From the NCBI GenBank assembly GCA_951406725.2, contig OX597815.1, positions 124,000,001 to 124,064,000 on the forward strand: a stretch of 64,000 bases of DNA, given 5' to 3'. The notes below the pieces were generated by a model that was not told where the DNA came from, did not search any database, and saw only the letters and a program-made list of their open reading frames with translations. Position 1 is the first letter of the stretch. The number at the start of each line of letters is the position of its first letter. Source of the stretch: Octopus vulgaris. Taxonomy: Eukaryota. Both the position numbers and the translations under genes were made by a program. Of the stretch, positions 17,600-25,320 are shown one piece after another.

Positions 17600-20500
17600 A
17601 TGGCAGCAAGGACTCTGAAACCATATCAGTCGAAAGAGTCTGGTCCGGCAGGGGTCTTCAGAGCATCACAGTCTGAACCCGGCCATCATCGTGCTACTGT
17701 GATTGAATCAAATAGAATATTGAATATTGGCTGTTGGAATGTACGGACACTGCTTGACCGCGAGTCCTCAGAATGTTCTGAACGAAGGACAGCTCTTTTT
17801 GCGAAGGAGCTTCGACGCTATGATCTTGACATCATTGCTTTATCTGAGACGAGATTAGCTGGAAATGGTCATCTTACAGAATCTTGTGGAAAATATACAT
17901 TGTTTTGGAAAGGGAGAGATGAAGAGTTTACAGGAGAGTCTGGAGTGGCATTTGCTGTTAAGACAACTATTGTGGACAAGCTGGAAGAATTCCCAGTCGG
18001 GATTAACGAGCGTCTTATGTCCATGAGAATTACTTTGGTTAAAGGAAAATATGTGACCTTGGTGAGTGTGCATGCTCCAACTCTGTATTCTACTGATGAC
18101 GAAAAAGTTTCTTTCTACAATGCTTTGAAGGGCATTATAAGAAATATCCCTCGGGCAGATAAGTCATCGTACAAGGTGACTTTAATGCTAGAGTGGGTAG
18201 AGATTTTAACAGATGGACTGTAATTGGAAAGCATGGGATGGGAAAGTGTAATAGTAATAGTATGCTTCTGCTACGGATGTGCGAGGAGCTGCGTCTGTGT
18301 GTTATCAATACCATGTTTCAACAAAAGAATAAGTTTAAGATCATATGGATGCATCCTGCATCTAAAGAATGGCAAATTCTGGATTACATCCTTGTTAGGG
18401 TGCGTGACAAACGAGATGTGCAGTGTGTTCGTGTCCTTCGTGGGGCTGAGTGTTGGACTGACCACCGCCTGGTACTTGCAAAAGTGAAATCAATCACATA
18501 ACATAAAATCCGAGCTGCAGGTATTACCCTGCCTAAAAGACTGAATGTTGCTCGTCTTAGGTGTAATAGTGAGAAGAGAACTTTACGAGAGGAAATGAAT
18601 GTTGCAGATATTGGGGAGGATTGGCCGACCCCTAAAATGTCAGTTTATAATATAGGCAGGAAAGTTCTGGGATTGATACAAAGAGAGCATCAAGATTATT
18701 TTAAACAAATGATGAACATGTAGGTGATTTATTGGTTGATAAAAGACTTACTTTGTCACGATATTTATCAGCAAAGCCACAGGAGAGAGATGTGTTGCAT
18801 AGGAAACTCAAGAATGTGAAATAACGTGTGAGGCGGAGGCTCTCTCAGATGAGGGATACGTGGTGGAGTAAGAAGGCTGATGAGATACAAGTGGCGTCGG
18901 ATTCCAATAACACAAAGCTGTTGTATGGTCTCTTGCGAGAAGTTTATTGACCGACTTCTCTGATGACACCACTTCGAAGCAGGGATAGTAAAGAATTTCT
19001 TCGTGATTCACAAGGAATTCTGCGAGGGTGGCAAGAACACTTTGATAAACTTTTGGATCAGCAGTCTGTAGTTAGTGAGGATGTTCTCAATCTCATGTTC
19101 TCAATCTCATGTTCTCAATCTCCACGGCTGTTGGGGAACCACCAATGTTGGAAGAAGTTGCGGTGGCTGTCTCAAGGATGAATAATGAGATGTCTCCGGG
19201 TATGGATGGAATACATGCGGAGTTGTTACAGCATGGTGGTGAGAAACTTCTACAGCAACTTCACTCCTTGTTTGGCAGGATATGGGCTAGTGAATCTGTA
19301 CCTGAGGACTGGAGAGATACAGTAATCGTGGTCTTATACAAGGAGAAGAGCAACAGGAATGATTGTGGTAAGTATAGGGGAATATCATTGCTTTCTGTAG
19401 TAGGAAAGGTTTTATGCAGGGTACTTCTAGATCGTCTGCTGAAACACATTGCAGATCGTGTTCTTCCAGAAAGTCAATCTGGCTTTCGTGAGCGACGCGG
19501 CACTGCTGATGTGTTGTGATCTTCTTAGACATCTTCAGGAGAAGTATATGTAACAGGGTCTGGATTTATATCATGTTTTTGTCGATCTGACAAATGCCTT
19601 TGATACCGTTAATAGAAATGCACTGTGAAAAGTCTTCTAGAAACTTGGTTGTCCTGAAAAGTTCCTTGCTTTGGTTAGGTCTTTTCATGAAGACATGAAG
19701 GGTAGGGTTAATGTTAGAGGCAAAATGTCGGAGCCTATCTCAATACAAAATGGAGTGAAACAGGGGAATATTCTGGCATCGACCCTATTTGCTATATATT
19801 TTGCGATGGTTTTCTGTGTTGCGTTCAGAAATTGCAGATATGGTGTTTACATCCATTATCGAACCTTTGGCAGCATATTTAATATCAGGCGCTTTGCTGT
19901 AAAAACAAAGGTACTTACCTCTATCATAAGAGACCTTTTGTATGCAGATGATTGTGAACTAGTAGCACACAGAGATTATGCACACAGAGATATGCAACAC
20001 ATTTTGAATGCATTCTCTGATGCTTTCACAGTCTCAAGAAAAATGTTGTCATGTACCAACCTCCCCTGGTAAGCAGTATAGTGAATCAAATATCTATGTG
20101 TGTGGTAAACGACTTGGTGTAGTCGATCAGTTTGTCTACCTGAGAAGCACTGTTGATACATATAGCAATTTGGATTATGAAATTCCATACAGAATTAGGA
20201 AAGCAAGTGATATGCAAGAAGACAAAGATAAAGGTGTACAAGGCGCGTGTGCTCTCTTCGATTCTTTATGCCTGCGAGACCTGAGTCACATATCGATACC
20301 ACCTTAAAAAACTGGAACGTTTCCATCTGATGTGTCTCCGACAGATCTATGTCATTAAGTGGGAGGACCGCATCAGTAAACTTAAAATATTGGAAAGCTC
20401 TCGGTGTGAAAGTATAGAAGCTCTTGTGTTGAGGCAAAGGCTCAGATGGAGTGGTCATCTGATCAGGATAAAAGATTCTAGGATGCGAAAACAACTCTTT

Positions 20501-21040
20501 TATGGAGAGCTAGCTAAAGGAGAACGACCTCCATATAAACCAAAAAAGAGGTATAAAGACTTGCTGAAGGTTTCCTTGAGAGATGCTAGCATGGGAGAGC
20601 ATAGCTATTGACCGTAGCAGGTGGAGAAGGATTGTGCATGAAGGGACAGCTACTTTGGAGAAATCTCGTGTTGCGCATGAGAAAGTAAGGAGGGATGTCA
20701 GGAGGATCATCGCTGTTGCACTTCCAGGTGGTAAGGTTCTTCCTATGACGCTGACATGCCTCATTAAAGCTGGATTCATCTTCGTAGTCATAAAGCGAGA
20801 CCGATCATTGACTACCAGGCCGCTGGTGGTGGTGCTACACATCATACTAATCATATCTGTCAGACATGTGGAAGGTAGTGTGATTCGATGGGAGTACTTA
20901 AACGACATGCAAAGGTACATGAAGCCCAATTACTACTACAACCAGCTATTGCCAGTAAAAGTTTTAGCTGCCAATTCTGTACAAGATATTGTAGATCTTT
21001 AGCTGGACTAAAAAATCACATTCGATCGCAGTACCGTTAA
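17600..21040 (+). pseudogene. RTE ORF: AP endonuclease, reverse transcriptase and C-terminal C2H2 fingers (frameshifted)
   Basis: APE motifs CWNVRTL, ALSETR, (G)DFNAR, LDYILV, TDHRLV. RT motifs SPGMDG, YRGISLLS, QSGFR, FVDLTNAFD, GVKQG, LLYADD. RQRLRWSGHLIR. Many stops and frameshifts. Confidence 0.93.
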
Positions 21041-22640: not shown

Positions 22641-22737
22641 TTATCTACCTTTCTATATACACACATAGAAGTAGAACGTTGGAATGTGTGCTCAACATCG
22701 CATTGGTGGATAACTAATTTCTTTATTTGTGATTTAA

Positions 22738-22796
22738 GGCTACCATTGGTTTCATGTTAAGAAGAGTGGGAAAGTTTCTGAACAGTTTTTCAAGCC
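22738..22796 (-). ncRNA. Variant hammerhead (UUGAAAA core) in PLE 3' terminal repeat
   Basis: Minus strand: ggc TTGAAAA ACTGTT...AACAT GAAA CCAATGG TA gcc. Stem I GGC/GCC, stem III ACCA-A-TGGT, GUA triplet. Confidence 0.65.
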
Positions 22797-24698
22797 GTGC
22801 ACATGGAGAACAATCTCGTTTCGTTCACGGGATTTCTCGTAAATTCACCTAAGTGAAACAATGAAACAATGAACGCTAATCTATAAGGCATTTTTGGGAA
22901 TTTGTCTCCCTTCGATTTGTCTTTTCGGTAAATTTCTTAATTTTTTTCATTCTTCGTATGATCTTGTTCTGGGCATGGTGTTTTGTACTTGTATGATGGA
23001 GCTTGTTTCTTCTTTGTGTGGAGTTTGTGACATTTCTTCTTTGTTGTGTGAAGTTTGTGTGCTATATGTGCTCATGTATATGGAGGGGCTATCCTGGTAG
23101 GGCTGCCTTTGTTTGTACTTACCCTCGTTCATAGGGGTCTTCTTTAAAGTATCTGAGTGTAAAATATTGCTTATGTATGCAGAGAGAGAAGGTTTCATCC
23201 TTCATATTTAAGATGTCTGTTGATTGAATAATATTTAAATTTTCAGTAATGCAGAGTTCATATATGGTGCCCCGTCATCTCTATTTTTTGGCTTAAGCAA
23301 TAGTTTTCCACTCTATCTGGGGGTTGATTATCCTATCTTCTTTCAATATCCATATTATATTTGAAGGGGATGTCTCATGTTATTTCTGTTTTTCTCTCTG
23401 AATGACGCAAGGTGTTGCGTATACCTTTCCTTGAACGAGTTTCCCATCATTCCGATATATGTCTTTGGTATTCCGTTGGGGTCCATGACCTTGGCCTTGT
23501 ATACGAGTTCTTTCTCGAGACAGTTATTGTTTAGAGGGCATCTATTTGAGGATCTGAAGTTGCACTGGTTTTCTGGGGGTGTTTCTGGTGTGTTTATGTT
23601 TATTGTGATTAAATATTATTGATCCTAGGAGGCAAATATAGCTAACTTTAACAGTGTTTCTGTTGAAGATTTTGTGGTATTTGTGCGAATATGGGAAGTG
23701 GTTGTCTTTTAGTTTTAAGAATTTCCTAGCTACATTCATGCTATAAGGCGTTTTGAACCATAAGATTTTTCTCTGTCTGCGTCTTCTTGGCCTTCTTGAA
23801 GTTGGACCTTTCTAATGCAGCATTATAATATGGAGCGGCTTTTTCAAAAGTGTCTTTGTCAACGAATAAATTGGAAACCCGCCTGCTAATGTTGTTCGTG
23901 GGTGGTTGGAACCTATATCTATGTACGAGGCTTCCTCGTTTTCCTTGCGGTAGGGTTTAAATTTCACCGTGTTAAGATTCATGTTGATGTCTAGGAAGTT
24001 GTAATTGTAGTTCATAGGCTTAGTTGGCTAAATATTTTGCATAATTTTTTCCTTATCCTCTTCTTGTCATGTCCGTTTTTATTGTGTAGTATCCCAGACC
24101 ATCGCCCCTTCCCTTTTTAAGGACATCTAGTATATAAATTAATAATTCCTATTTCCCCTTTTGTGGAACTTATTAATCTACTGCTAGGATTTTGTGTAAA
24201 ATTGTTTTTATGGTCTTTCAGAATTATAAAAGGATTTCGTGGGATAAGCTTTTCTACGTTGCCTTCTATTTTAAACTTCGTGGCTAGATTTTTTGCTTCT
24301 ATATTAATTGAATTATATAGACAGTGCAACTTCAGATCCCCAAATAGTTGCCCTCTAAACAGCAACTGTCACGAGAAAGAACTCGTATACAAGGCCAAGG
24401 TTACGGATCCCAACGGAATACCCAAGACGTATATCGGAATGACGGGATACTCGTTCAAGGAAAGGTAATACAAGTACAAAACACCATGCCCAGAACAAGA
24501 TCATACAAAGTATGAAAAAAATTAAGAAATTTACCGAAAAGACAAATCGAAGGGAGTCAAACTCCAAAAAATGCTTTATAGAGTAGCGTCCCTCGATTCA
24601 CTGTTTCATTGTTTCACTTCCGCGAATTCACGAGAAATCCCGTGAACGAAAGGAGATTGTTTTCCAGAATGGAGGCGAACACCTTTCTCAATATGATC

Positions 24699-24765
24699 AG
24701 CTTGAAAAATTGTTGAAATTCTTGGATATTTTTCCACTCTTCTTAACATGAAACCAATAATAGCC
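24699..24765 (+). ncRNA. Variant hammerhead (UUGAAAA core), decayed inverted copy
   Basis: agc TTGAAAA ATTGTTGA...TTAACAT GAAA CCAATAA TA gcc; stem III damaged relative to the 22738 copy. Confidence 0.5.
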
Positions 24766-24827
24766 TTAATTCACATTTGTGTGTGTGTGTGTGCGAGTGT
24801 ATGTATGTATATATATATATACACACA

Positions 24828-25196: not shown

Positions 25197-25232
25197 CAGT
25201 ACCGGTTTCAGTCATTGAGACTTTTTCAACTG
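25197..25232 (-). ncRNA. 36-nt minimal variant hammerhead (U3-A8)
   Basis: Minus strand: cag TTGAAAA AGTC tcaat GACT GAAA CCGG T A ctg. Stems I and II pair perfectly; palindromic stem III ACCGGT; GUA triplet. Confidence 0.7.
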
Positions 25233-25284
25233 TAAGTATGGAAAACAATTAAATTTTAGAAAAATTAATTGTTTTCCATACTTA

Positions 25285-25320
25285 CAGTTGAAAATGTCTC
25301 GATGACTGAAACCGGTACGG
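25285..25320 (+). ncRNA. Second minimal variant hammerhead, 3 substitutions
   Basis: cag TTGAAAA TGTC tcgat GACT GAAA CCGG T A cgg; stem I and stem II each carry one mismatch. Confidence 0.55.

What the first reader, a model, noticed from the sequence alone, without database searches (positions are those of the whole stretch)
22738..24765. A coding Penelope element carries a U3-A8 variant hammerhead in both inverted ends
Seen: where a PLE hammerhead is expected, both terminal copies read (G/A)GC-UUGAAAA-stem II-GAAACCAAU(GG/AA)UA-GCC. Established: C3 and G8 form a tertiary Watson-Crick pair, and U3-A8 is a tolerated but rare substitution. Both copies having both changes argues for ancestral covariation rather than decay. 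Standard CUGANGA searches would score this family as ribozyme-less.
Basis: partly seen in the sequence, partly recalled or inferred. Interest (0 to 1): 0.75.

Follow-up and report, generated by a model that had tools for sequence, protein, structure and literature searches.

The report
Known-variant hammerhead in decayed Penelope element
Both ends of this broken jumping gene carry a hammerhead RNA motif (likely self-cutting in the ancestral element, untested) in which a core C-G pair is replaced by U-A; the swap is the norm for this family, but it is already published for such elements, so this is a new family of a known thing.

Summary
The motif is real. Both ends read UUGAAAA where CUGANGA is usual, and this is the family state: 89 of 100 listed copies are U3-A8, none C3-G8. 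The element is a decayed Hydra-clade Penelope-like element: stops, frameshifts and a deleted reverse-transcriptase core, so it is not intact coding. The two ends lie on opposite strands and probably come from one insertion, so they are not independent evidence; the right copy has a broken stem III. The swap is well supported across families: related Hydra families, including published Hydra-1_Obim with the same stem III, keep C3-G8. U3-A8 is in print for Penelope elements (Cervera 2014, about 1,300 Schistosoma hits) and in nature (Perreault 2011). What I add: I found no U3-A8 among 26 published Hydra-clade hammerhead rows; the core is combined with a U10.1-U11.1 mismatch; and other families here carry U3-A8 (857 and 2,480 matches) or G3-C8 (4,122). 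The scan had already noted U3-A8 and G3-C8 families elsewhere in this genome. Cleavage is untested. New member of a known kind.

The parts
22664..24775 (-). Whole insertion: 5'-truncated, internally deleted Hydra-clade Penelope-like element with an inverted 3'-end copy at its 5' side; microsatellites on both flanks
   Evidence: left bound approximate
22664..22737 (-). Tail of about 74 nt beyond the hammerhead, present in full at this end only
   Evidence: shared with many family copies
22738..22796 (-). Left hammerhead, type I minimal: stem I 3 bp, U3 at 22793, A8 at 22788, extra A, U10.1-U11.1, shortened stem II, GAAA 22753-22750, palindromic stem III, predicted cut after A17 (22741)
23358..23615 (-). 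Remnant of linker (CxCX5C-type, first Cys pair damaged) and GIY-YIG endonuclease without the CCHH cysteines
   Evidence: translation; family search; no Pfam hit
23795..24000 (-). Remnant of RT end and thumb, frameshifted
   Evidence: 55% identical to residues 396-471 of the related ORF in L086
24138..24305 (-). Remnant of RT N-terminal part; the RT core that should follow (about 183 codons) is reduced to 138 nt
   Evidence: 43% identical to residues 158-213 of L086 ORF
24322..24775 (+). Inverted 3'-end copy (inverted pseudo-LTR): endonuclease piece joined to 3' UTR, lacking the equivalent of 22995-23421
   Evidence: arms 92% and 91% complementary
24699..24765 (+). Right hammerhead: U3 at 24702, A8 at 24707; stem I and stem III damaged
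25197..25320 (.). Separate insertion of another family: two inverted U3-A8 hammerheads (25197-25232 minus, intact; 25285-25320 plus, stem I damaged)

Best explanation
This is a dead copy of a Hydra-clade Penelope-like retrotransposon whose family carries a minimal type I hammerhead motif with U3-A8 in place of C3-G8, a swap that likely keeps the tertiary Watson-Crick pair and would let the ancestral RNA cut itself slowly as a dimer. Shown: element anatomy, broken ORF, family-wide U3-A8, C3-G8 in the nearest related hammerheads. Inferred: the swap was fixed in the family's active ancestor under selection for the catalytic fold; two tandem sense copies would pair through the palindromic stem III, perhaps helped by the element's own protein, and cut after GUA. 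At this locus the two motifs are on opposite strands and would pair with each other as a long duplex, so they are unlikely to cut.
For: Family counts 89 of 100 U3-A8, 0 C3-G8 (hand count); 0 of 30 copies chosen by the 3' half alone have CUGANGA. Sister Hydra family: 28 of 45 C3-G8, 0 U3-A8, single decays 5 and 6 of 45, so independent decay would give about 1.5% U3-A8. Hydra-1_Obim has the same stem III with C3-G8, and 203 C3-G8 motifs with this stem III occur here. Family majority pairs at 3-8 were Watson-Crick in all 5 families counted: U-A three times, C-G, G-C. RNAcofold gives the hammerhead dimer for the left copy and a family copy. U3-A8 and U10.1-U11.1 are each reported as tolerated (PMC3088659 section 8).
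Against: No cleavage data. The combination U3-A8 plus U10.1-U11.1 plus a 3-bp stem I was not found tested. Canonical PLE minimal hammerheads are already slow (PMC4209133), and in an anole PLE cleavage was not needed for insertion in vitro (PMC11167929). None of the 32 ends printed stops at the predicted cut site. RNAcofold did not give the full dimer fold for the family 3, 4 and 5 examples. No intact family-1 ORF among 150 scored matches. Family counts use exact patterns and only the first 100 matches are listed.
Confidence: 0.72

Rival explanations
1. The U3-A8 motif is a non-cutting relic or a protein-binding signal: the family spread without needing cleavage and the two changes were fixed in one master copy by A+T-biased drift.
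For: Hammerhead mutants did not reduce insertion in vitro; both changes (C>T, G>A) are the commonest decays in the sister family; one master copy explains family-wide sharing; insertions run past the cut site.
Against: No family with a mismatched majority pair among 5 counted; G3-C8 (97 of 100) cannot come from A+T drift; U4, G5, A6, A9, GAAA, UH and three stems are kept while stem sequences differ between families.
Confidence: 0.2
2. Post-insertion decay of a canonical CUGANGA motif at this locus.
For: The element is old and decayed (copies 81-88% alike to the right end).
Against: 0 of 100 and 0 of 30 family copies are C3-G8.
Confidence: 0.02
3. The two motifs at this locus form a working ribozyme pair in a host transcript.
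For: The left copy keeps all core letters and can be folded as a homodimer.
Against: Opposite strands; right stem III broken; the arms would form a long duplex (predicted -364 kcal/mol); left stem II shortened and mismatched.
Confidence: 0.05

Closest known systems
U3-A8 minimal hammerheads of Cercyon PLEs, Schistosoma mansoni (Cervera and de la Pena 2014, PMC4209133; main text parts 1-2 of 4, supplement file 2 passages and part 2 read)
   Same: Type I minimal hammerhead in PLE terminal repeats, U3-A8 core, extra nucleotide after A9, palindromic stem III, dispersed and inverted copies; about 1,300 hits reported.
   Different: Different PLE clade and host; here U10.1-U11.1 rather than G10.1-C11.1, a longer stem II with an inner hairpin, and a 9-nt stem III palindrome.
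Hydra-clade PLEs, especially Hydra-1_Obim (Craig et al. 2021, PMC8557442; passages, section 11, supplement passages and part 2 read)
   Same: C-terminal GIY-YIG without CCHH, CxCX5C linker, DKT motif (in family copy L144), microsatellite flanks, U before GAAA, same stem III palindrome as Hydra-1_Obim.
   Different: All 26 Hydra rows of File S2 are C3-G8; this family is U3-A8, with different stems I and II.
Natural hammerhead core variants (Perreault et al. 2011, PMC3088659; passages and section 8 read)
   Same: U3-A8 covariation and U10.1-U11.1 mismatch both seen in nature and described as tolerated.
   Different: Section 8 lists them as separate variants; here they occur together in a minimal, dimer-type motif.

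Membership tests
Penelope-like elements (EN+) | RT followed by GIY-YIG endonuclease | tested here: met
   Remnants in that order, aligned to L086 ORF; no Pfam hit on the six fragments tried
Penelope-like elements (EN+) | Pseudo-LTR, inverted 5'-truncated copy, optional tail | tested here: met
   layout as described in PMC8557442
Penelope-like elements (EN+) | Intact single ORF (autonomous copy) | tested here: not met
   stops, frameshifts, RT core deleted
Hydra clade | CxCX5C linker, no CCHH in the endonuclease | tested here: met
   translation shows C-N-F-R-x4-C-P-L (second Cys changed in this copy, present in L091) and no Cys between the GIY and YIG equivalents
Hydra clade | DKT motif | tested here: met
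   in family copy L144, 78-89% identical to the window element; region absent from this copy
Hydra clade | RWK motif | tested here: inconclusive
   not found in 15 fetched loci searched; present in relatives L092 and, as RWR, L086
Hydra clade | Placement in an RT tree with reference Hydra elements | not tested
   only an endonuclease tree of 39 copies from this genome was built
Hydra clade | Canonical CUGANGA hammerhead | tested here: not met
   U3-A8 in 89 of 100; described for the clade but not a protein-level defining trait
Hammerhead ribozyme (type I, minimal) | Core U4 G5 A6 A9, G12 A13 A14, A15.1-U16.1, H17 | tested here: met
   both copies
Hammerhead ribozyme (type I, minimal) | Watson-Crick pair at 3-8 | tested here: met
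   U-A at sequence level; the tertiary pair itself is inferred
Hammerhead ribozyme (type I, minimal) | Stems I, II and palindromic III | tested here: met
   left copy and family copy fold as dimer; right copy does not
Hammerhead ribozyme (type I, minimal) | Site-specific self-cleavage | not testable with these tools
   needs a bench assay

The most novel reading that the evidence does not exclude
Penelope hammerheads in this genome have swapped the catalytic 3-8 pair repeatedly and independently (U-A in a Hydra-clade family and in a Neptune-type family, G-C in a third), and this family stacks U3-A8 on a U10.1-U11.1 mismatch to give a deliberately weak ribozyme that cuts only when dimerised or bound by the element's protein: a natural rate-tuning series that makes the open question of what PLE hammerheads do directly testable.
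Probability: 0.25. Interest if true: 0.6.

Novelty: new member of a known kind. Interest (0 to 1): 0.3.

Why it matters
The variant itself is known, so the locus is ordinary. The value is practical and comparative: CUGANGA descriptors miss thousands of PLE hammerheads in this genome (4 of 11 descriptor hits in a random 600 kb had U-A or G-C at 3-8), the statement that Hydra elements carry canonical hammerheads has an exception, and the repeated Watson-Crick swaps at a pair that matters only in the active fold argue that catalysis was under selection in PLEs, whose hammerhead role is still described as unclear (PMC8557442).

Tried and rejected
Rfam scan of the window: 0 matches. Pfam on six element fragments: nothing relevant; L086 ORF: 0 families. 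Search for an intact family-1 ORF: longest open frame 363 aa among 150 scored matches, in a distant family. Sequencing runs: no RNA holder listed on record and all runs were contigs; laying contigs gave no start or end signal, which says nothing on cleavage. In one search no change at positions 3 or 8 was among the 40 rows shown (5 not shown), three runs covered; weak, not used as support. A C3-G8 subfamily inside family 5: 6 of 2,480 matches, near what single changes would give, rejected. PLE link of family 5: no PLE frame upstream of the motif in the loci examined; left open. No hammerhead found behind the L086/L091/L093 family. Papers not held: Lunse 2017, Przybilski and Hammann 2007, Hammann 2012, Martick and Scott 2006; Lunse 2017 and Cervera supplement file 1 (not searched) may list further core variants. 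Searches for natural G3-C8 or further U3-A8 reports returned only PMC4209133, PMC3088659 and engineered cases (PMC3884650, PMC11167929).

Full report
Observation. The window holds two inverted arms, 22728-22994 against 24468-24775 and 23422-23567 against 24322-24467. Each ends in a hammerhead-like motif with UUGAAAA in place of CUGANGA. A descriptor that requires stems I, II and a palindromic stem III but leaves positions 3, 7 and 8 free found 2 hits in the window, the left end and a second family at 25229, both U3-A8. The right copy fails because GG>AA breaks stem III and G>A shortens stem I. Rfam found nothing.

The element. On the minus strand lie pieces of an RT N-terminal part, RT end and thumb, a linker and a GIY-YIG endonuclease, broken by stops and frameshifts. 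Against a 506-aa open frame of a relative (L086), the copy jumps from residue 213 to 396 across 138 nt, so about 410 nt with the catalytic RT motifs are gone. The linker is of the CxCX5C type, the CCHH cysteines are absent, a family copy has the DKT motif, and the flanks are microsatellites: the marks of the Hydra clade (PMC8557442 section 11). RWK was not found in family copies. The inverted arm is the 5' inverted copy typical of PLE insertions, and the left end carries a tail of about 74 nt. The host is likely an octopus: the published Hydra-1_Obim hammerhead core-to-cut sequence occurs in this genome.

Are the two copies independent? Probably not. The arms are 91.5% and 91.8% alike; the best other copies among fetched loci reach 86.5, 90.6, 87.1 and 85.6%. 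The test has to be the family.

Family test. The 25-letter 3' half matches 311 places. Of the first 30 by position, 15 have UUGANAA, 0 have CUGANGA, the rest are damaged or deleted; aligned columns give U at 3 in 27 and A at 8 in 21 of 30. With 3, 7 and 8 free there are 166 matches; among the 100 listed I count by hand 89 U-A, 3 U-G, 1 C-A, 5 with A3, 1 U-U, 1 U-C and 0 C-G (two of these rows look like chance registers).

Is it a swap? A sister Hydra family, found through the endonuclease search and separate in an endonuclease tree (39 rows, 24 without an assigned end), has C3-G8 in 28 of 45 and U3-A8 in 0; single decays are 5 U-G and 6 C-A, which would give about 1.5% U-A by chance. It shares the extra letter and the U10.1-U11.1 junction. 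Hydra-1_Obim has the same stem III palindrome with C3-G8, and all 26 Hydra rows of File S2 of PMC8557442 are C3-G8. A search for C3-G8 with this stem III gave 203 matches; none of the 100 listed has the family-1 stem II. U3-A8 is thus likely the derived state (inference; no rooted tree).

Other families. The motif at 25197-25232 belongs to a younger family: 857 exact matches, 100 of 100 listed U3-A8, downstream of a 616-aa stop-free frame with RT and GIY-YIG hits (L139) and a CX2-5CxxC linker, so Neptune-type (Neptune and Nematis not separated). A further family has U3-A8 with G10.1-C11.1 (2,480 matches, 89 of 100 listed; PLE link not shown). Another has G3-C8 (4,122 matches, 97 of 100) behind RT and GIY-YIG frames (L242, L243). 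In 60 stretches of 10 kb at round coordinates the descriptor gave 11 hits: 5 C-G (two are one palindromic locus), 3 U-A, 1 G-C, 1 U-G, 1 U-U; shuffles gave 1, 1, 0. I found these before reading the scan's notes, which already describe G3-C8 and U3-A8 families in this genome.

How it likely works. Shown: sequence, stems, family counts. From papers: C3-G8 is a tertiary pair of the active fold (PMC3884650 passages); U3-A8 and U10.1-U11.1 are tolerated (PMC3088659 section 8); PLE minimal hammerheads cut slowly and as dimers (PMC4209133); an anole PLE hammerhead cut only with protein present and its cleavage was not needed for insertion in vitro (PMC11167929 passages). Computed: RNAcofold folds the left copy, a family copy and the family-2 motif as dimers joined by stem III, but not the right copy, nor fully the family 3-5 examples. 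Inferred: in the active ancestor, tandem sense copies paired through stem III and cut after GUA at a low rate. At this locus the motifs are antisense to each other and decayed, so activity is unlikely. Against a role in defining insertion ends: none of the 32 ends stops at the cut site.

Novelty. U3-A8 in PLE hammerheads is published: about 1,300 hits in Schistosoma mansoni, with the same UUGAAAAA string in the supplement. New here are the family, its clade and the pairing with U-U. Lunse 2017 and other papers that may list such variants were not held. Other papers seen: bioRxiv 10.64898/2026.07.22.740005, PMC6765202, PMC7151607 and PMC13282606, passages only. Verdict: real, new member of a known kind, interest 0.3.

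Noticed in passing
window 25197-25320: Inverted pair of U3-A8 hammerheads of a younger, Neptune-type PLE family (857 exact matches; near-intact 616-aa frame in L139).
   Followed up: yes
L242:609-2344, L243:597-3760 (G000:C1): PLE family with a G3-C8 hammerhead core, 4,122 exact matches, 97 of 100 listed G3-C8; no natural G3-C8 found in the papers searched; already noted by the scan.
   Followed up: partly
L230-L241, L013:475-488: Family with U3-A8 and canonical G10.1-C11.1, 2,480 matches, often as short inverted pairs; carrier element not identified.
   Followed up: partly
L165:8151, L010:1054: Further single descriptor hits with U3-A8 (N7 = C) and 5-6 bp stem I; families not counted.
   Followed up: no
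L086:772-2289, L093, L091: Hydra-type family with long open frames (506 and 399 aa) followed by long microsatellite runs; no hammerhead found within 1.5 kb downstream.
   Followed up: partly
L258-L267; G000:C9:6088638: At least three C3-G8 families share the stem III palindrome of the finding's family, one matching published Hydra-1_Obim; cross-family dimers are conceivable.
   Followed up: no
window 17600-20800: Broken LINE-type element (AP endonuclease and RT pieces by eye, + strand) upstream of the finding.
   Followed up: no
L139:5360-6499: 380-aa frame resembling a PIF1-type (Helitron) helicase, by eye, just upstream of the family-2 element.
   Followed up: no
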